From IMG/VR virus record IMGVR_UViG_3300043470_000815: a DNA stretch of 64,000 nucleotides; one strand, 5' to 3'. Positions within the stretch are counted from its first letter, which is position 1, and each line of letters starts with the position of its first letter. The notes under the pieces are model-generated. The model saw only the letters and a program-made list of their open reading frames with translations, was not told where the DNA came from and did no database searches. This DNA comes from a virus. Shown one piece after another: positions 1,102 to 31,605 of this stretch. The translations under genes and the position numbers were made by a program.

Positions 1102-1733
1102 CTAATGATGGTCTATTTCGTTATAATATTGTCGGTCTTTTAGCAATTCAATCACGTCAGTCAATTTATATGGCTTTAGATCATTTCCATCCACCCCAAT
1201 ATCCATTTGACGACCATTACCAAAACGATTATCACCCTGCCAATGTTGATGACCATGAAGTTGGTATGTGCCTTTACGGATTTCATTCCATGATGAAATT
1301 TTAAAATGAAACAGTACGAGTTTTACTTTTTCGATTTCAATTTCAAGATACTTTTGACGTGACGCGAACAAGTGATCCCATTTTCCTTTTTCTTGATGTG
1401 GATCGTGATTCCCGGTAATAAGATGTATTTCCTTAACATTCAACATGTTACGAAATATTTCAATGTTTTGCTCACCCGCGAACGACCAATCCCCCAAGTG
1501 AAATAAAATTCCATCGTCAGGGATTAAAGTGTTAAAATTGTCTGCCATTTTTTGGGTCATTTCAAGCGGCGTATCAAAATCCCTAATTTTTAAGTCATTG
1601 CCGTTAATTGACCATTCGGTTGTACCACGCGTGATGTTTTTATGGAACGCATGTGTCAAGTGTCCGAGGTAATCCATACTCTTTCTAAAAGAGATTTACT
1701 GGACACCCCGGACATAATAGTGTTTTTTGTCAT
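1102..1733 (-). pseudogene. calcineurin-like metallophosphoesterase, frameshifted near the N-terminus
   Basis: main ORF 1102-1677 has LGD, GNHD, HGHQH motifs; the first motif (RVWITSDT) is in another frame starting at ATG 1733 and ends at TGA 1656-1658. Confidence 0.7.
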
Positions 1734-3598: not shown

Positions 3599-4645
3599 TT
3601 AAATCTTTTCAAATTTAGGTTTAATCAAGTTCCAAATTAACTTATCGGTCAATTCGGTGTTATTATCGTATTTCGCGAATAGAATTTTTGGATAAATTTT
3701 AATAAAATATATTTTACTACATTCATTTACAAATTTTGCAAATTCCTTTCGGGTGGTTGTTTCATGTTTTTGAAATAAATAATCATAATACGAATTAATA
3801 TCCCTAAACCATAATTTCAAATTATTTTCATACTGTTTAATTTTATCATAAAATTCATCAGGTACATCATTCAATATCGAAGAGACTGGTTTACCATCCC
3901 GTAACGCTTCCCAAACCGCCGTAGTTGAAAGATTAGTCATTTGCCGATGTAACCGTACATAATCTGCAAATTTGATCTTACACCGATTACCATTAGCAAA
4001 TTTAACGACAAATCCTTCGTGGTTTTGCCAGTTTAAAGATTTCAAATCTGAATAAGATGTATAAGGATATTTTTTTACATAATTTAACCCATATTGTAGG
4101 GTATAATCAGCAAGTCCGTCAAAGTATTCGATTTTACCTGTTGGGTGGAAAATTCCAGTTAAAATTAGGTCGGGTTGCTCATATTTAACAACAATTTGTT
4201 CAAATCCTACCAATTCAAAACAATATGTTAATAATTTGGCCCGACAATTTAGTGCAAAATCCTTATATTTTTCAAACAATATTCTTTTAGCCTCAACCGC
4301 GTAAGGTGAAGTAAATGAGCCACGCGAATTTACAACCAATTCATTATTATACCAAAAAATTCCGATGTACTGTCCGTCTAATTTGGAATAGACTTCAAAC
4401 TGGTCGGTTGGAGTGTGTCGATTTTCTTCCAAGTTAAAGAATTTTTTGAATCCCTTGGAAATGATATTACCTTCATAATCTGTAACCAGTCCACGACATT
4501 CAATTAATAATGGATATTCGTCCCACAAATTTTCATATTGAACTTTGGCAGTATAATTCCAAATGTGTAAGGATAAGGTTGGGTGGGATTGAACCGTAAC
4601 TAACCCATCCTGTAAATATTGCTTTAGTATTTGTTTATTTATCAT
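3599..4645 (-). CDS. T4 Rnl1-like RNA ligase
   Basis: ECRGLV, motif I SKLDG, SRGSF, FELVG, EGFVV, KIKFADYVRLH. Confidence 0.9.
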   Translation of the reverse strand: MINKQILKQYLQDGLVTVQSHPTLSLHIWNYTAKVQYENLWDEYPLLIECRGLVTDYEGNIISKGFKKFFNLEENRHTPTDQFEVYSKLDGQYIGIFWYNNELVVNSRGSFTSPYAVEAKRILFEKYKDFALNCRAKLLTYCFELVGFEQIVVKYEQPDLILTGIFHPTGKIEYFDGLADYTLQYGLNYVKKYPYTSYSDLKSLNWQNHEGFVVKFANGNRCKIKFADYVRLHRQMTNLSTTAVWEALRDGKPVSSILNDVPDEFYDKIKQYENNLKLWFRDINSYYDYLFQKHETTTRKEFAKFVNECSKIYFIKIYPKILFAKYDNNTELTDKLIWNLIKPKFEKI

Positions 4646-20899: not shown

Positions 20900-21277
20900 T
20901 TATTTAGTATAAACCTTTCGTATAGGTTTAAACTGTGCTTTTTTAGATTCGTTTACAAGTTCATCAATGGCCAGTTGTGCCTTGGTTGGATTGTCATAAT
21001 AATAATATCCAAAACCTTCGTGCATCCAAGTTTTTGCATGTTCCCAAACAAATACATACTTAAATTTTGTCCAAGACCATTTTTTAACGTGTTGCTGAAT
21101 AAAATATCGTGATGAACCATCGAATTGTGTCTCTTCGATTATCATAAAAGATGTAAGTAATTTTTTATTAAACATTTGGAAATACATTTTCGTCATAAAA
21201 TTTTTGCATGGCATTCCAGCAAAATAGAATTTCTGTTTCAGACACGGGGCGAAAATGCCAAGCATCAACACCGACAT
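20900..21277 (-). CDS. hypothetical protein (true start probably near 21146)
   Basis: C-terminal part resembles 21810-22112; annotated N-terminus overlaps the phosphoesterase. Confidence 0.55.
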   Translation of the reverse strand: MSVLMLGIFAPCLKQKFYFAGMPCKNFMTKMYFQMFNKKLLTSFMIIEETQFDGSSRYFIQQHVKKWSWTKFKYVFVWEHAKTWMHEGFGYYYYDNPTKAQLAIDELVNESKKAQFKPIRKVYTK

Positions 21278-21737
21278 TAATCATCTTTGGTTGAACTTTC
21301 CAAAGTCCATGAATGTGTCCTGTGATTGCGAAATTATAAGCAGTGTCATCCAAGGCTTTCTTGCAATTAATTGGATAGTGGTTTAAATATACCAAATTAT
21401 CACCTAATAACAAATCAAATGATTCATAAATATGGTCGAAATAATCATGTAATAATCCTATATGTTGTTCATCGTAATTTCCAATTATTAAGTTAAATTT
21501 GGAATTAGGATACCTCGATTTTAATGAAGTTAACCATAAATGACATTCGGTATCATACAATACGTCTCCCAAATGCCAAAGGGTATCGCCATCTTTGAAA
21601 TCCGAATTAAAAAATCCGTCCATAATCGCGTGATTTTGCTCATTAATAGATTTAAACGGTCGGTAAAATAAGTTTGGCTTTCCATCAATTCCAATGCGTG
21701 GATCGCCTAAGTGCCAATCGGCTGTAAAGTAGTTCAT
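21168..21737 (-). CDS. calcineurin-like metallophosphoesterase
   Basis: ADWH, LGD, GNYD, LNHYP, GHIH motifs. Confidence 0.9.
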   Translation of the reverse strand: MNYFTADWHLGDPRIGIDGKPNLFYRPFKSINEQNHAIMDGFFNSDFKDGDTLWHLGDVLYDTECHLWLTSLKSRYPNSKFNLIIGNYDEQHIGLLHDYFDHIYESFDLLLGDNLVYLNHYPINCKKALDDTAYNFAITGHIHGLWKVQPKMINVGVDAWHFRPVSETEILFCWNAMQKFYDENVFPNV

Positions 21738-24323: not shown

Positions 24324-26171
24324 TTAAATTGTGTTTTGTTTTATTAATTCATAACGGTTTGACATATACAACGTTTTCAACGGTAAGTAAGTATCAATAA
24401 CATCTAAATCGTCAATATTCTTAAAGATTTGATTAATCACACCTGCATTATAACCCATTACGTGTAAAGTATTAGGAACTCCAGCGAACTTCGATGGTTC
24501 GTCCCTACCAGTCACAACGTCCCAAATAACTACAACACCATCCCACCCATAATTCAACATTTTGCGACGAAAATCTAACATGGATTGTGCTGCATTACTT
24601 AGACGATTCATATCACCATCCGAAACAACAACAAAAACGGGATACCCTTGTAGTTGTTCAATTTTATGCTGTTTAGTTAATGGGTCAGATTCAATCCACC
24701 TACCTAATGTGTCGGCAACTGATGTGAAGTTTGTACTTCCACCATTAGAATCAATGAATTTTGATATATTTCCATAGTTTTCACTAAAAGGTTTAGTACG
24801 ATCAATTAATTTTTCTACCTTAGTTGCAACACCTTGTAAAAAACGATTTGGGCGGGTTGTGCCTGTTGAACCATCCGTGTAAACATTTGCTTCCGATCCG
24901 AATGTAATAAGGACGTTATCTAATTCATTGGATGGATTTTTTAACATTGTAATTGTTGATAGCAAACGAGCCATAAACGTTGCAACACCTGTCATACTAC
25001 CCGAAATATCCGCAATTGTCAATACTGGAACATCGAACTTAACTTGATCCAAAATACTTTGTGCATTTAAATTCAGTTGGGTGGTGGATTGTTGCATCTT
25101 TTCCAAAATACTAAACATCGTTTCTCCACCCGTGTTGACTTTGGCCGCTTTTTTAACCTGTGATAACGCAATTTTATCTTCTTCACTGGCAGTTCCTAAA
25201 CGGATTTTTTCAGTCAGTTCACGTTGCGTTTCTTGTAATTTGGCTTTATTGGTTTCCCATTCAAGTAACCATTTTCCTAAGTCATTTTTCCACTTAGATT
25301 TTAATTTATCATCACCATCCAACAACCTACGACGGGTACGGAAACGTGCCGATGACGGCATTTTATCCAACAAATCATTAAATTGAATTTTGTCCAAATC
25401 GTTAATTTTTCCTGTTGAAAATAGAACACTTTCCAATTCTTGGTTGTATTGTTTTTTCCATTCAGCCAACCCCGTGAATTTTTTGTATTTTTCACCACGT
25501 GAAACTTCCCACCCTAATTCAACTGATAATAAATCGTAAAATTTACTACGAAGTTTCATATTGGCTTTGACTAAATCAGACAAATCACGTTGACCAACCT
25601 TTTCACGGGTTGTACGGTCTAACTTTTGACGCTTAGATGTTCGCACGTTTGTTAGGAATTTTGCAATTATCATACAATCCACCACATTACCTTTACGGAT
25701 AATATTTGCGAGGTATTTTGCAACTTCCGATAGATCAACACATTCCAACATGTTAATGTTTTCGGTTACTTGTTTACTACCAGTTTTTGTCTTGACACGT
25801 GATGCTAATACGTTGTCCAATGTGGTATATTGCCTTATACAATCGCTTGTGACGAACTTTAGGTATTGGGTTGGATGATTTAGCCTTGTCCAATTTAAGA
25901 TTGTCCTAAACGCTTCACGGTTGGAATTACCACCGTTATCTAACGAAGTTTCATTTCGTAGAACGTTATGTGTTCGGTTGGAAATGTCGCCACAACTGAA
26001 TGCAATTATCCAAAACAATTGTTTTTCTTGTTCGGTTTTACAATCGCGGAATGCGTTGGTTAGAATTGCGGGTGTAATTTTACCTGATTGGGCAGCCTGA
26101 TAAAATTCAAATAAAGCAAGTTTTCCATAAAATGGATTTTCACTTGCGGGAGTTTTTAATGAAACTTTCAT
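24324..26171 (-). CDS. DUF2828-like (TROVE/Ro60-related) vWA-domain protein
   Basis: C-terminal vWA with MIDAS DISGS, STNF, VVSDG, VVIWDV, VMGYN; N-terminal helical region with GGNSNREAFRTILNW..HP resembling DUF2828. Confidence 0.7.
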   Translation of the reverse strand: MKVSLKTPASENPFYGKLALFEFYQAAQSGKITPAILTNAFRDCKTEQEKQLFWIIAFSCGDISNRTHNVLRNETSLDNGGNSNREAFRTILNWTRLNHPTQYLKFVTSDCIRQYTTLDNVLASRVKTKTGSKQVTENINMLECVDLSEVAKYLANIIRKGNVVDCMIIAKFLTNVRTSKRQKLDRTTREKVGQRDLSDLVKANMKLRSKFYDLLSVELGWEVSRGEKYKKFTGLAEWKKQYNQELESVLFSTGKINDLDKIQFNDLLDKMPSSARFRTRRRLLDGDDKLKSKWKNDLGKWLLEWETNKAKLQETQRELTEKIRLGTASEEDKIALSQVKKAAKVNTGGETMFSILEKMQQSTTQLNLNAQSILDQVKFDVPVLTIADISGSMTGVATFMARLLSTITMLKNPSNELDNVLITFGSEANVYTDGSTGTTRPNRFLQGVATKVEKLIDRTKPFSENYGNISKFIDSNGGSTNFTSVADTLGRWIESDPLTKQHKIEQLQGYPVFVVVSDGDMNRLSNAAQSMLDFRRKMLNYGWDGVVVIWDVVTGRDEPSKFAGVPNTLHVMGYNAGVINQIFKNIDDLDVIDTYLPLKTLYMSNRYELIKQNTI

Positions 26172-26225
26172 TAATTTGTAAGTTAATAAGTGAAAAAAAA
26201 AATAAAATACTACCTAATGGTTAAA

Positions 26226-26486: not shown

Positions 26487-26600
26487 CAGGGGTTATTGGA
26501 CTCGAACCAATATTTCGACCTTGGAATGGTTGTTAAATGAATTGTAAGTAATCAAATGAATACTTTAATTTACGCGTCCTACCAGTTAGACTAAACCCCT
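26487..26600 (-). ncRNA. tRNA-shaped RNA with inserted helix-ACAAU module
   Basis: acceptor AGGGGTT/AACCCCT, D arm GTCT..GGAC, T arm ATTGG-TTCGAGT-CCAAT; hairpin AAGTATTC/GATTACTT + ACAAT between D arm and a weak TCC anticodon arm. Confidence 0.75.
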
Positions 26601-26781: not shown

Positions 26782-26880
26782 AAATCCACTTGTTGTTGTC
26801 CACCACTGGACGAATCACCATACATGAAGGTAAATATAAGAATCGAACTTATCATTTTTTAATGTATTGTAAGTGGATTT
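26782..26880 (-). ncRNA. Y RNA (YrlA)-like circularly permuted tRNA mimic
   Basis: terminal helix AAATCCACTT/AAGTGGATTT + ACAATAC; inside in order T arm (ATAAG-TTCGATT-CTTAT), loop-closed acceptor-like stem, D arm (GTCC-AGTGGT-GGAC). Confidence 0.75.
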
Positions 26881-26934
26881 AAAATTTATGTTTAAATCCC
26901 GATAGAATTAAAGTTAATCTTTGTGATTTAATTG

Positions 26935-27086
26935 TCGGGGAGGTGGGAATCGAACCCACGTTGTATAATATATCAGATTATTTTATATGTTAAAAGTATT
27001 GTAAGTAAATTAAACTCTGAATTAATCGTTAGTATTTTAATTGATAAAGTTTTTAATCTACTCATTTCCAGCGTTTTAACTCCCCT
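26935..27086 (-). ncRNA. tRNA-shaped RNA with helix-ACAAU module in place of the anticodon arm
   Basis: acceptor GGGGAG/CTCCCC, T arm GTGGG-TTCGATT-CCCAC, internal helix GAGTAGATT/AATTTACTT + ACAATAC. Confidence 0.7.
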
Positions 27087-29635: not shown

Positions 29636-30070
29636 TTATTGTTTAATATGTGATTTTTTACCACCACAAGATCGTGAACAACATGGTTTAAACGTTGGAT
29701 TTTTAACAAGTTTATAATTGACATGATTACCCGCTTTGATAAATTCTTTATTACAAACCGGACATATAAAACATAAATATTTTTTTGTTATATTTCTGTG
29801 TTCTCTATCTTTTTTGTTATTTTCTTTAGGTGTTAAAATTTGTAAATTATCAATGACATCGTTTAAAGGATTATTATCTATATGATCTACGTGTTCATTT
29901 TTTAATAAAAACCTTTCAAGTTTACAACACATTAAATATCTAGCATACGACATACTTGTTCGCGAATTATCGTTTTTTACTAAAACAACTAAATTTCTAG
30001 GTTCTTTATTTTGTAATAAATAAATTGCTTTATAATCTTCTATAAATGGAATTTTTAGTTCGATTTTCAT
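29636..30070 (-). CDS. free-standing HNH homing endonuclease
   Basis: YARYLM..HVDHIDNNPLNDVIDNLQIL HNH motif plus C-terminal CPVC..CCSRSC zinc finger. Confidence 0.85.
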   Translation of the reverse strand: MKIELKIPFIEDYKAIYLLQNKEPRNLVVLVKNDNSRTSMSYARYLMCCKLERFLLKNEHVDHIDNNPLNDVIDNLQILTPKENNKKDREHRNITKKYLCFICPVCNKEFIKAGNHVNYKLVKNPTFKPCCSRSCGGKKSHIKQ

Positions 30071-30100
30071 TATTTATATATTCTTTTAACTAAAAGAAAA

Positions 30101-30190
30101 TGCACTTAATTTGTGGGATTTGAACCCACCTTCGTTTGTGTTTGAGACAAATTGTTCACCTAGAACAGTTTTAAATTTATTGTAAGTGCA
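30101..30190 (-). ncRNA. tRNA-like RNA whose acceptor stem is replaced by the helix-ACAAU module
   Basis: terminal TGCACTT/AAGTGCA + ACAATA; inside D arm TGTTC/GAACA, anticodon arm TTTGT-CTCAAAC-ACAAA, T arm GTGGG-TTCAAAT-CCCAC. Confidence 0.75.
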
Positions 30191-30194
30191 ATAG

Positions 30195-30266
30195 TACCCC
30201 GTATGGGAATCGAACCCATATTTGTAGATCGAAAATCTACTATACTAACCGTTATATGAACGGGGC
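30195..30266 (-). tRNA. tRNA-Glu(TTC)
   Basis: cloverleaf: GCCCCGT/ACGGGGT, anticodon arm GTAGA-TTTTCGA-TCTAC, T loop TTCGATT. Confidence 0.9.
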
Positions 30267-30328: not shown

Positions 30329-30387
30329 AAATCCACTTATTCGTAAAATACCATAATTTTTGATTTAAAAGTATTGTAAGTGAATTT
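30329..30387 (-). ncRNA. minimal helix-ACAAU RNA
   Basis: AAATTCACTT + ACAATAC ... AAGTGGATTT followed by T-run; no tRNA arms. Confidence 0.65.
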
Positions 30388-30408: not shown

Positions 30409-30482
30409 TGGCAGGGGTGTGAATCGAACACACAATAATTGGACTTATGAGACCCACTAGCCTACCAAGGCTTGTCCCTGCT
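30409..30482 (-). tRNA. tRNA-Met(CAT), probably initiator
   Basis: AGCAGGG/CCCTGCC with 1:72 mismatch, loop CTCATAA, T loop TTCGATT. Confidence 0.85.
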
Positions 30483-30506
30483 ATTTATTTTTTTTTTACA
30501 TTTTAG

Positions 30507-30587
30507 TGGGAAAAGATGGAATCGAACCACCAATAAAATTTTTGTAAGTAAATTAAATCTACTAACCTGTTTTTTCCCGATTTTCCC
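30507..30587 (-). ncRNA. tRNA-shaped RNA with helix-ACAA module in place of the anticodon arm
   Basis: acceptor GGGAAAA/TTTTCCC, T arm GGTGG-TTCGATT-CCATC, hairpin AGTAGA/TTTACT + TACAAAA. Confidence 0.7.
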
Positions 30588-30892: not shown

Positions 30893-31063
30893 TGGTTGAG
30901 GTAGGAATCGAACCTACAAACTTGATATTTTTTACCATCTTTTACTACCTTCGATGTTTAATATCGTGCTGGTTTACTGTTCATAAGTAGTATATCATGG
31001 AGTTTACCCATAATCAATTGTATTGAACTTCACCAACGCGTTTACCAATTTCGCCACCCAACC
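30893..31063 (-). ncRNA. Leu-like tRNA scaffold with ~100-nt insertion in the anticodon arm
   Basis: GGTTGGG/CTCAACC, D arm GGCGAAATTGGTAAACGC, T arm GTAGG-TTCGATT-CCTAC, 171 nt in total. Confidence 0.7.
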
Positions 31064-31081: not shown

Positions 31082-31138
31082 AATCCACTTAATTATCAAA
31101 TTAAAAGTTTGGTTGTTTTAATGTATTGTAAGTGGATT
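31082..31138 (-). ncRNA. minimal helix-ACAAU RNA
   Basis: AATCCACTT + ACAATAC ... AAGTGGATT then long T-run; ends identical to element 26782-26880. Confidence 0.7.
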
Positions 31139-31502: not shown

Positions 31503-31520
31503 ATTTAATTGATTAATTAG

Positions 31521-31605
31521 TGCAGATGGTGGGACTTGAACCCACACGCCCATTTAGAACAACGGTGTTTAAGACCGTTTTGGCTACCAATTACAACACA
31601 TCTGC
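31521..31605 (-). tRNA. tRNA-Leu(TAA)
   Basis: GCAGATG/CATCTGC, ACGGT-CTTAAAC-ACCGT, long variable arm, T loop TTCAAGT. Confidence 0.9.

What the first reader, a model, noticed from the sequence alone, without database searches (positions are those of the whole stretch)
30101..30190. tRNA body whose acceptor stem is swapped for the motif helix
Seen: intact D arm, anticodon arm (loop CUCAAAC, CAA) and T arm are enclosed by TGCACTT/AAGTGCA + ACAAUA rather than an acceptor stem. Inference: a non-chargeable, anticodon-presenting decoy tethered to the vWA protein, for example bait for anticodon nucleases. I know of no description of this topology.
Basis: partly seen in the sequence, partly recalled or inferred. 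Interest (0 to 1): 0.8.

Follow-up and report, generated by a model that had tools for sequence, protein, structure and literature searches.

The report
Acceptor-less tRNA mimic on Ro60-type handle
The last gene of this lake phage's tRNA operon is a ~90-base RNA with a tRNA body but no usable amino-acid end, closed instead by a conserved "handle" that travels with a Ro60-shaped phage protein, so it is probably that protein's partner RNA, not a working or dead tRNA.

Summary
On the minus strand, 30190-30101 reads: helix strand TGCACUU, unpaired ACAAUA, a D arm, a canonical anticodon arm (loop CUCAAAC), a canonical T arm, helix strand AAGUGCA, then a U-tract. Only a 5-bp A-U remnant sits where the acceptor stem should be.

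The closing helix plus ACAAWA is a "handle". At least three other RNAs in this window share it, as do about 180 RNAs in about 45 related phage loci, where its upper pairs covary. It clusters on the strand of, and next to, homologues of the 615-aa protein at 24324-26171. It also lies just before that gene's start codon in 29 of 43 loci. The full-length protein model matches Ro60 best and has an invariant vWA/MIDAS motif. The N-terminal domain alone retrieves nothing specific.

In relatives the handle usually encloses a complete tRNA. About 8-10 lineages carry acceptor-less bodies like this one, mostly with a Lys-UUU loop.

Best reading: a Y-RNA-like partner RNA displaying a tRNA mimic. The decoy role is untested. 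The topology is not unprecedented, because Deinococcus Yrn1 was modelled this way. This scan has also noted analogous RNAs with a different handle in other phages. No expression data could be obtained.

The parts
30184..30190 (-). Handle, 5' strand (TGCACUU), ending in the family's invariant ACUU
30178..30183 (-). Unpaired ACAAUA that follows the 5' strand. The family consensus is ACAA(U/A)A.
30168..30177 (-). A/U linker. AAUUU at 30177-30173 can pair with 30112-30108, giving a vestigial acceptor-like helix of 5 A-U pairs.
   Evidence: the model deletes the acceptor columns
30153..30167 (-). D arm (UGUUC-UAGGU-GAACA). It keeps the GG but has a shortened loop.
30135..30151 (-). Anticodon arm: 5-bp stem and 7-nt loop CUCAAAC, anticodon CAA (Leu) at 30144-30142. 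C30144 is U in the 97% relative L054, giving UAA, also Leu.
30113..30129 (-). Canonical T arm (GUGGG-UUCAAAU-CCCAC), preceded by the 5-nt variable loop at 30130-30134
30101..30107 (-). Handle, 3' strand (AAGUGCA), starting 5 nt after the T stem
30092..30100 (-). U-tract (UUUUCUUUU) after the handle. It is the likely 3' end of the RNA and of the tRNA operon. The tRNA-Glu gene ends 3 nt upstream of the element, at 30194.
24324..26171 (-). Gene of the presumed partner protein P0001 (615 aa): a helical-repeat N-domain plus a C-terminal vWA domain with an invariant DxSxS MIDAS motif. The full-length model is Ro60-like. A handle-like ACUUACAA lies at 26176-26183, just before the start codon.
31082..31138 (-). 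Sister handle RNA with a short 39-nt insert, followed by a U-run
30330..30386 (-). Sister handle RNA with a short 39-nt insert, followed by a U-run
26783..26879 (-). Sister handle RNA with a circularly permuted tRNA-like insert: T arm, closed hairpin, D arm. This is a YrlA-like order.

Best explanation
Window 30192-30092 (minus strand) encodes a small RNA of about 90-100 nt, the last gene of the phage's tRNA operon. It belongs to a family of Y-RNA-like RNAs whose 5' and 3' ends pair into a conserved handle. The handle is a helix ending ...ACUU/AAGU..., followed on the 5' side by single-stranded ACAAWA.

Inferred: the handle docks the RNA onto the phage's Ro60-shaped protein (24324-26171). The same motif in that gene's 5' UTR would allow autoregulation.

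The cargo here is a tRNA-derived body with D arm, a true anticodon arm with a Leu anticodon, and T arm. It has lost the acceptor stem, discriminator and CCA, so it cannot be matured or aminoacylated as a tRNA.

Inferred: the particle presents a tRNA look-alike to a tRNA-binding factor. That factor could be a host anticodon nuclease, a modification or repair enzyme, or another effector. This parallels how bacterial Y RNAs tether Ro60 to an effector.

Shown: the anatomy, the family membership, the covariation of the handle, the genomic linkage to the protein, and the recurrence of the acceptor-less form.

Not shown: transcription, protein binding, and the cellular target.
For: Anatomy.

Handle family:
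- ACTTACAA occurs 8 times on the gene strand within 5 kb in this window.
- In 43 related loci it occurs at 0.97/kb within 3 kb of the gene, 0.14/kb farther away, and 0.041/kb on the opposite strand.
- It lies within 75 nt before the start codon in 29 of 43 loci.

Helix:
- 39% of motif copies have at least 8 contiguous pairs with a partner 25-135 nt downstream, against 6% after shuffling.
- Pairs 5-9 covary: UA/CG/AU/GC.
- Taking helices without regard to what follows, the next bases are A-C-A-A-(U/A)-A.

Nested tRNAs:
- The structure 'handle + full cloverleaf' is 95% paired over 29 sequences, against 67% shuffled and 36-45% when slid.
- Model R1 finds this element at 49 bits, E about 1e-8, with the acceptor deleted.

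Census of 81 handle-bearing R1 matches:
- 45 have 6-7 acceptor pairs and 15 have 3 or fewer.
- About 10 of those 15 keep the anticodon and T arms and most of the D arm. These include L005:2676, L034:11970 and L040:13126 (Lys-UUU loops), and L025:13370 (GUU loop). L023:9234 (Lys-UUU, reduced acceptor) was found outside the census.
- Phages with an acceptor-less Lys body also carry a normal tRNA-Lys.
- This window has normal tRNA-Leu(UAA) and tRNA-Leu(UAG) genes.

Similarity: the element is more like L005's mimic (69% over 94 columns) than any canonical tRNA of its own genome.

The 97% relative L054 has the element unchanged except for C34 to U34, which keeps Leu.

Protein:
- The top 12 Foldseek matches are all Ro60, E 2e-7 to 2e-4.
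- VIA-align gives Z 13.2, rmsd 4.4 A, 392 residues against 1yvr.
- Atlas models give TM 0.63-0.75 to DUF2828/DUF7788 clusters and 0.54-0.67 to TROVE clusters.
- D388, S390 and S392 are invariant.

Literature:
- Y RNAs lie within 4 kb of Ro60 on the same strand and mimic tRNA (PMC4201824).
- A Ro60-like phage protein beside tRNA genes counters a host defence (PMC11482910).
Against: - There is no evidence of transcription or of RNA ends. The only RNA run held contigs of relatives.
- Protein-RNA binding is inferred from co-location alone.
- The protein has no Pfam TROVE hit.
- Its N-terminal domain folded alone matches only generic helical repeats: Foldseek E 0.09 or worse, VIA-align Z 6.2 or lower. 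The Ro60 likeness therefore rests on the full-length model and on predicted Atlas models.
- The handle differs from the published Ro60-binding motifs (GNCGAAN0-1G, CGAA).
- The element scores lower with R1 (49 bits) than other acceptor-less members (62-82 bits), and its D arm is atypical, as expected also of a decaying gene.
- The only close relative is 97% identical, so conservation of this particular copy says little.
Confidence: 0.6

Rival explanations
1. It is a decaying pseudogene. A handle-enclosed tRNA-Leu, like those in L003, L002 and L020, lost its acceptor end. A deletion between the tRNA's ...UUAAG end and the handle's AAG start could have done this. The RNA would now have no function of its own.
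For: - The 3' side ...AAAUUAAG aligns with AUGUUAAG, the acceptor 3' strand plus G73 of the nested tRNA-Leu genes of L002 and L020.
- The D loop is shortened.
- A/U-only remnants flank the body.
- The R1 score is low (49 bits).
- Rfam's tRNA model is sub-threshold.
Against: - The handle, anticodon arm and T arm are all perfect in a 31% G+C genome.
- Acceptor-less bodies with intact arms recur in phages whose partner proteins are only 33-37% identical, beside normal tRNAs of the same anticodon.
- Between the related loci L047 and L040, the change at the first T-stem pair (G-U to A-U) keeps the pairing.
- The one difference from L054 is at the wobble base and keeps Leu.
Confidence: 0.13
2. It is a working tRNA-Leu(CAA) precursor. 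The handle is a leader-trailer helix that is removed, the weak inner helix UAAAUUU/AAAUUAA serves as the acceptor stem, and CCA is added after G73.
For: - Most handle-enclosed relatives are complete tRNAs. Some have an encoded NCCA abutting the handle's 3' strand.
- A 6-of-7 acceptor pairing can be drawn here.
- The genome has no other CAA tRNA.
- The wobble change in L054 keeps Leu.
Against: - The acceptor and handle strands overlap by 2-3 nt, so the two helices cannot both form.
- 5 nt instead of 2 separate the acceptor from the D stem.
- ARAGORN makes no call, Rfam scores below threshold, and R1 deletes the acceptor.
- tRNA-Leu(UAA) at 31520-31605 already reads UUG, from established wobble rules.
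- In L054 the element duplicates the UAA anticodon of a canonical gene.
Confidence: 0.1
3. The handle has nothing to do with the vWA protein. It would be a processing or termination signal of phage tRNA operons, such as an RNase site or a stem plus U-run. It would sit near the gene only because both lie in the tRNA region.
For: - Several copies are followed by U-runs (75 of 280).
- Handles flank real tRNAs.
- The TACAAU within the motif resembles a -10 hexamer (one search lists two such matches).
Against: - The octamer is 7-fold denser within 3 kb of the gene than in the rest of the same tRNA-rich loci. It sits in the gene's 5' UTR in 29 of 43 loci.
- Most copies lack a U-run.
- A promoter reading cannot explain covariation between strands 25-135 nt apart.
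Confidence: 0.1

Closest known systems
Deinococcus radiodurans Yrn1 Y RNA with Rsr (Chen et al. 2014, PMC4201824)
   Same: The terminal 5'/3' stem binds the Ro60 orthologue. The interior was modelled as D-like features, an 'anticodon arm' with a 5-bp stem, and a T arm. The protein-binding stem therefore stands where the acceptor stem would be, which is the same order as here.
   Different: - In Yrn1 the D arm is doubtful, the 'anticodon loop' has 6 nt and there is no variable region. Here the anticodon arm is fully canonical (7-nt loop, U33, A37) and there is a 5-nt variable loop.
- The binding motif differs.
- The protein here is not a recognisable TROVE protein by sequence.
YrlA Y RNAs of Salmonella, M. 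smegmatis and mycobacteriophages (PMC4201824; structure preprint 10.1101/312249)
   Same: These are small RNAs within 4 kb of a Ro60 gene and on the same strand, with a terminal stem and a tRNA-mimicking module. They also occur in phages.
   Different: - YrlA is permuted (T arm, closed acceptor-like hairpin, D arm) and has no anticodon arm. That design is seen in this window at 26783-26879, not in this element.
- YrlA's motif GNCGAAN0-1G is absent here.
- No Rfam family other than tRNA matched this region.
Thermus phage phiLo Ro60 with Yrl1/Yrl2 (PMC12135203)
   Same: A phage-encoded Ro60 ring with phage-encoded partner RNAs upstream of the gene. The solved structures 9kop and 9l5y are among the matches of the full-length model.
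   Different: The phiLo RNAs are stem-bulge-stem Y RNAs with a CGAA motif and no tRNA body. Binding is shown there and only inferred here.
Bas63 gp130, a Ro60-like phage protein upstream of the tRNA genes (PhageMaP preprint, PMC11482910)
   Same: A Ro60-shaped phage protein sits next to a tRNA array. The authors suggest that some 'tRNA genes' there are Y RNAs. The gene counters a host defence called ppl.
   Different: No RNA family, handle or topology was described there. The relation of gp130 to P0001 was not tested here.
Handle-enclosed complete tRNAs of related phages
   Same: They have the same handle, the same position near the same gene, and the same D-anticodon-T order. Examples with Leu anticodons are L003:7216-7328, L002:8845-8954 and L020:11993-12104.
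   Different: They keep a 6-7-bp acceptor stem, a discriminator and sometimes an encoded CCA. This element does not.

Membership tests
tRNA (functional, chargeable) | 7-bp acceptor stem ending in a discriminator base and CCA, encoded or addable | tested here: not met
   Only 5 contiguous A-U pairs remain, and they overlap or abut the handle's 3' strand. Model R1 deletes both acceptor strands. ARAGORN makes no call.
tRNA (functional, chargeable) | Score at or above the curated threshold of Rfam RF00005 | tested here: not met
   25.2 bits against a gathering score of 29
tRNA (functional, chargeable) | Anticodon arm (5 bp, 7-nt loop, U33, purine 37) and T arm (G53-C61, UUCRANY loop) | tested here: met
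   UUUGU-CUCAAAC-ACAAA and GUGGG-UUCAAAU-CCCAC
tRNA (functional, chargeable) | Canonical D arm with the U8/A14 context and an 8-11-nt loop holding G18G19 | tested here: inconclusive
   The stem has 4-5 bp and the GG is present, but the loop has only 5-7 nt and 5 nt precede the stem.
Y RNA / YrlA (Ro60 partner RNAs) | Encoded within about 4 kb of, and on the same strand as, a Ro60-type gene | tested here: met
   The element is 3.9 kb upstream of the 24324-26171 gene on the same strand. The linkage is conserved in 43 loci. Whether the protein is a true Ro60 homologue is tested in separate rows.
Y RNA / YrlA (Ro60 partner RNAs) | Published Ro60-binding motif in the terminal stem (GNCGAAN0-1G / CGAA bulge) | tested here: not met
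   The handle is ...ACUU/AAGU... plus ACAAWA. No Rfam Y-RNA family matched at E up to 5-10.
Y RNA / YrlA (Ro60 partner RNAs) | Terminal 5'/3' stem that encloses a tRNA-like module | tested here: met
   The order is D-anticodon-T as in Yrn1, not the permuted order of YrlA.
Y RNA / YrlA (Ro60 partner RNAs) | Physically bound by the Ro60 protein | not testable with these tools
   This needs co-purification or a gel shift.
Ro60 / TROVE protein (partner protein P0001) | Match to Pfam TROVE (PF05731) | tested here: not met
   There is no hit in P0001 or in 32 homologues. DUF2828 is weak in 2 of 32, with best E 0.041.
Ro60 / TROVE protein (partner protein P0001) | C-terminal vWA domain with a MIDAS DxSxS motif | tested here: met
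   D388, S390 and S392 are invariant in 32 sequences. vWA structures match at Z 11-13.8.
Ro60 / TROVE protein (partner protein P0001) | Overall fold: a helical-repeat ring closed by the vWA domain, as in solved Ro60 | tested here: inconclusive
   The full-length model has Ro60 as its 12 best Foldseek matches (E 2e-7 to 2e-4) and Z 13.2 over 392 residues. Atlas models give TM 0.54-0.67 to TROVE clusters. The N-domain alone retrieves only generic helical repeats.
Handle-RNA family of this phage group (defined here) | Helix of 7 or more bp ending ACUU/AAGU, ACAAWA after the 5' strand, gene strand, near a P0001-type gene, and a match to model R1 | tested here: met
   TGCACUU/AAGUGCA plus ACAAUA. 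R1 scores 49 bits, E about 1e-8.

The most novel reading that the evidence does not exclude
Phages of this group make Ro60-like particles that display interchangeable tRNA cargo on one handle. The acceptor-less, anticodon-presenting versions (mostly Lys-UUU, here Leu-CAA/UAA) would be uncharged stand-ins for the tRNAs that host anticodon nucleases attack. They would act either as decoys that soak up the nuclease, or as adaptors that bring the ring protein and the phage's RNA-repair enzymes (an Rnl1-type ligase is in the window) to cleaved tRNAs. The complete tRNAs locked inside handles would be a protein-guarded reserve.
Probability: 0.15. Interest if true: 0.85.

Novelty: new variant of a known kind. 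Interest (0 to 1): 0.6.

Why it matters
Ro60 and its Y RNAs are conserved from bacteria to humans, yet what the tRNA-like part of bacterial Y RNAs is for remains open. Here a very diverged Ro60-shaped phage protein, invisible to Pfam's TROVE model, travels with dozens of RNAs that mount tRNA cargo on one handle. The cargo ranges from whole tRNAs to acceptor-less bodies with true anticodon loops.

If the pairing is real, three things follow:
- It widens the Ro60/Y-RNA family.
- It gives a function lead for an uncharacterised phage protein family.
- It offers a natural series (full tRNA, acceptor-less, permuted, bare hairpin) with which to test what the tRNA mimicry does. One published hint is that a Ro60-like phage protein counters a host defence.

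It also matters for annotation. tRNA scanners either miss such genes or call them tRNAs.

Tried and rejected
- **Own genome:** none is held for this window.
- **GenBank phages:** there is no relative by DNA or protein. Only ordinary tRNA similarity was found.
- **PDB by sequence or profile:** nothing was found. PHROGs gave nothing for the protein.
- **Expression:** the stretch occurs in lake-water metagenomes of several years. The single RNA-library run held only contigs of 85-99% relatives at low depth, and contigs cannot show ends or levels, so it says nothing on expression.
- **Reciprocal test:** a scan of IMG/VR for CACTTACAATA-N30-60-AAGTG was too unspecific and the returned stretches were short. 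120 stretches were returned and 1 held the protein gene, so the test is uninformative.
- **N-terminal domain folded alone:** no TROVE match by Foldseek or by the wide VIA-align search.
- **Promoter/terminator scan:** it does not call the element.
- **Reading TACAAU as a -10 box or DNA operator:** rejected, because the two helix strands covary at variable distances of 25-135 nt.
- **Maturation of permuted or interrupted tRNAs by cleavage and ligation at the handle:** considered as in algal permuted tRNAs (recalled, not tested). Nothing here supports it, and it was not pursued.
- **ACUUACAA in the tRNA at 30507-30587:** this is simply the anticodon loop of a tRNA-Val(UAC). I do not count it as a handle.

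Full report
**Setting**

The window is 31% G+C, with nearly all genes on the minus strand. It carries phage genes: a T4-type baseplate protein, an Rnl1-type RNA ligase, amidases and an HNH endonuclease. No whole genome is held for it. The same DNA occurs in lake-water metagenomes, and a 97% relative lies on a 183.6-kb contig (L054). A tRNA operon runs on the minus strand from about 32201 to 30101.

**The observation**

Read on the minus strand, 30190-30101 has these parts in order:
- TGCACUU
- ACAAUA
- a 10-nt A/U linker
- a D arm
- an anticodon arm with loop CUCAAAC
- a 5-nt variable loop
- a T arm with loop UUCAAAU
- AAAUU
- AAGUGCA
- a U-tract UUUUCUUUU

The minimum-energy fold is exactly the outer helix plus three hairpins. 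The z-score is -3.55 and no shuffle of 200 folds as well. ARAGORN finds no tRNA. Rfam's tRNA model reaches 25.2 bits, below its 29-bit threshold, and pairs only AAUUU with AAAUU as an 'acceptor'. The element starts 3 nt after tRNA-Glu (30194-30266), so it is the last RNA of the operon.

**The motif helix is a real, conserved RNA handle**

- In this window CACUUACAAUA-type copies close at least three other RNAs: 31082-31138, 30330-30386 and 26783-26879.
- I fetched 53 IMG/VR loci and 5 further contigs that encode homologues of the 615-aa protein at 24324-26171.
- The octamer ACTTACAA is concentrated on the gene's strand and next to the gene. It occurs at 0.97 per kb within 3 kb, 0.14 per kb farther off, and 0.041 per kb on the other strand. 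It lies within 75 nt before the start codon in 29 of 43 loci.
- 39% of copies have a partner strand giving at least 8 contiguous pairs 25-135 nt downstream, against 6% after shuffling. Helix positions 5-9 show UA, CG, AU and GC pairs.
- When helices ACUU/AAGU are picked without regard to what follows, the next bases are A, C, A, A, U/A, A.
- Variable spacing and covariation exclude a promoter or operator reading.

**What the handle encloses**

Three kinds of cargo recur:
- short hairpins
- circularly permuted tRNA-like modules (T arm, closed hairpin, D arm), the published YrlA order
- tRNA bodies in natural order

For the third kind, ARAGORN of 44 inserts as complete tRNAs with their own acceptor stems. 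They carry many anticodons: Leu, Gln, Ile, Thr, Asn, Pro, Lys, Glu, His, Cys and UCA. Several have an encoded NCCA that abuts the handle's 3' strand.

An alignment of 29 such RNAs supports 'handle + full cloverleaf'. 95% of cells are paired, against 67% in shuffles and 36-45% when slid, and 24 of 29 pairs have double changes.

**Where this element fits**

The covariance model R1, built from those 29 RNAs, finds 30099-30192 at 49 bits (E about 1e-8). This is the second-best match in the window. The alignment matches the handle, ACAAUA and the D, anticodon and T arms, and deletes both acceptor strands.

A census with R1 covered the window and 46 loci and gave 81 handle-bearing matches:
- 45 have 6-7 acceptor pairs.
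- 21 have 4-5.
- 15 have 3 or fewer.

Among the last group, about ten keep the anticodon and T arms and most of the D arm:
- this element and its L054 twin
- L005:2676, L034:11970 and L040:13126, all with Lys-UUU loops; their duplicate loci L042 and L047 carry the same element
- L025:13370 (GUU loop), L045:12446 (GAA loop, 3-bp acceptor) and others

L023:9234 (Lys-UUU loop, reduced acceptor) was found outside the census.

Those phages also have an ordinary tRNA-Lys(UUU) elsewhere. This window has ordinary tRNA-Leu(UAA) and tRNA-Leu(UAG) genes.

End to end, the element is most like L005's mimic (69% over 94 columns) and the nested tRNA-Leu(CAG) genes of L002 and L020 (66-67%). It resembles these more than any canonical tRNA of its own genome. 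Its 3' side ...AAAUUAAG aligns with the acceptor 3' strand plus G73 of those nested tRNA-Leu genes. It therefore probably descends from a handle-enclosed tRNA whose 3' spacer and acceptor were lost.

In L054 the element is identical except for C34 to U34, which changes CAA to UAA, both Leu. Similarity between the two phages ends 4 nt after the handle, where this phage has an HNH gene.

**The protein**

- P0001 has no Pfam, PHROG or PDB sequence match. It has more than 250 metagenomic homologues and an invariant DxSxS motif.
- An AlphaFold model (pLDDT 78.7) has Ro60 proteins as its 12 best Foldseek matches, E 2e-7 to 2e-4. These include Deinococcus Rsr and Thermus phage phiLo Ro60.
- VIA-align gives Z 13.2, rmsd 4.4 A over 392 residues against Xenopus Ro. 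vWA-only proteins reach a similar Z over about 190 residues.
- The ESM Atlas places the protein next to DUF2828/DUF7788 phage clusters (TM 0.63-0.75) and TROVE clusters (TM 0.54-0.67).
- The N-terminal domain folded alone retrieves only generic helical repeats.
- I therefore call the protein Ro60-shaped, with homology to TROVE likely but not proven.

**Reading**

The best-supported explanation is a Y-RNA-like partner RNA. The handle docks on the Ro60-shaped protein, and an uncharged tRNA look-alike is displayed. 'Bait for anticodon nucleases' remains a hypothesis.

Two points lean that way without proving it:
- Lys-UUU predominates among the acceptor-less forms, and by established knowledge tRNA-Lys is the classical PrrC target.
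- The window holds an Rnl1-type ligase at 3599-4645.

The rivals are a decaying pseudogene, a real tRNA-Leu precursor, and a handle that is a processing signal unrelated to the protein. They are weighed in their own sections.

**Prior knowledge**

- Chen et al. 2014 (PMC4201824) described tRNA mimicry by Y RNAs in bacteria and 22 phages. They also modelled Yrn1 with an anticodon-like arm between D and T elements, which is the same order as here.
- Phage phiLo Ro60 binds two phage Y-like RNAs (PMC12135203).
- A Ro60-like protein of phage Bas63 next to its tRNA genes counters the ppl defence (PMC11482910).
- A Listeria phage has abundant RNAs near an Rsr-like gene (PMC12282133).
- I found no paper describing this handle, handle-enclosed whole tRNAs, or acceptor-less anticodon-bearing forms. 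The held library is incomplete.
- Earlier unchecked notes of this scan describe the same kind of RNA, with an ACAGCAA handle beside DUF2828-type proteins, in many other phages. The kind has therefore been seen before on other DNA. The handle sequence and protein subfamily here are different.

**Verdict**

The element is real, non-random and conserved as a class. It is a new variant of the Ro60/Y-RNA theme, not a categorically new system. Its function and even its expression are untested.

Noticed in passing
window 29636-30070 (-): An HNH endonuclease gene (PHROG 14913, Pfam HNH_3) sits directly after the element's U-tract. It is absent from the 97% relative L054, where similarity breaks at window position 30097. 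This looks like a recent homing-endonuclease insertion or loss at the end of the tRNA operon.
   Followed up: partly
window 26487-26600 (-) and 30893-31063 (-): Two Rfam tRNA matches (42 and 40 bits) have 55-nt and 107-nt insertions in the anticodon-arm region. The first insertion carries a handle-like hairpin followed by ACAAU. They are too short for group I or II introns. Their nature is unexplained.
   Followed up: no
window 26925-27086 (-): A tRNA-like gene has a GGGGAG/CUCCCC acceptor stem, a canonical T arm and a long insert containing UUUACUUACAAUA. Its 3' end gives a partial Rfam tmRNA match (E 6e-4). ARAGORN calls neither a tRNA nor a tmRNA.
   Followed up: no
window 30411-30484 (-): A probable tRNA with a CAU anticodon loop is missed by ARAGORN and by Rfam's tRNA model. 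It shows only a 27.7-bit tRNA-Sec match, and an A1-C72 mismatch can be drawn.
   Followed up: no
L057:6830-6941, L007:9210-9311, L009:6723-6829, L023:9354-9459, L039:3734-3842: Five related phages carry a handle-enclosed tRNA with anticodon UCA, which reads UGA. This hints at opal suppression or recoding in this phage group.
   Followed up: no
alignment A4, columns 29/102: In 13 of 25 handle-enclosed tRNAs the first acceptor pair (1-72) is not a standard pair, while pairs 2-7 are well kept. This may matter for how, or whether, RNase P releases them.
   Followed up: no
window 3599-4645 (-), 1102-1677 (-), 21168-21737 (-): The window holds an Rnl1-type RNA ligase (Pfam RNA_lig_T4_1, E 1e-19) and two calcineurin-like phosphoesterases. 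Together they could make up an RNA end-healing and sealing set in the same phage as the handle RNAs.
   Followed up: no
L002:8964-9030, L012:10336-10404: Short handle RNAs whose only cargo is a hairpin with a Lys-type loop (AUUUUAA / CUUUUAA), that is, bare anticodon stem-loops on the handle.
   Followed up: no
L005:2676-2768: In one relative the otherwise invariant handle pair C-G (ACUU/AAGU) is G-C (AGUU/AACU). This is a compensatory change at a position constant in about 180 other copies.
   Followed up: no
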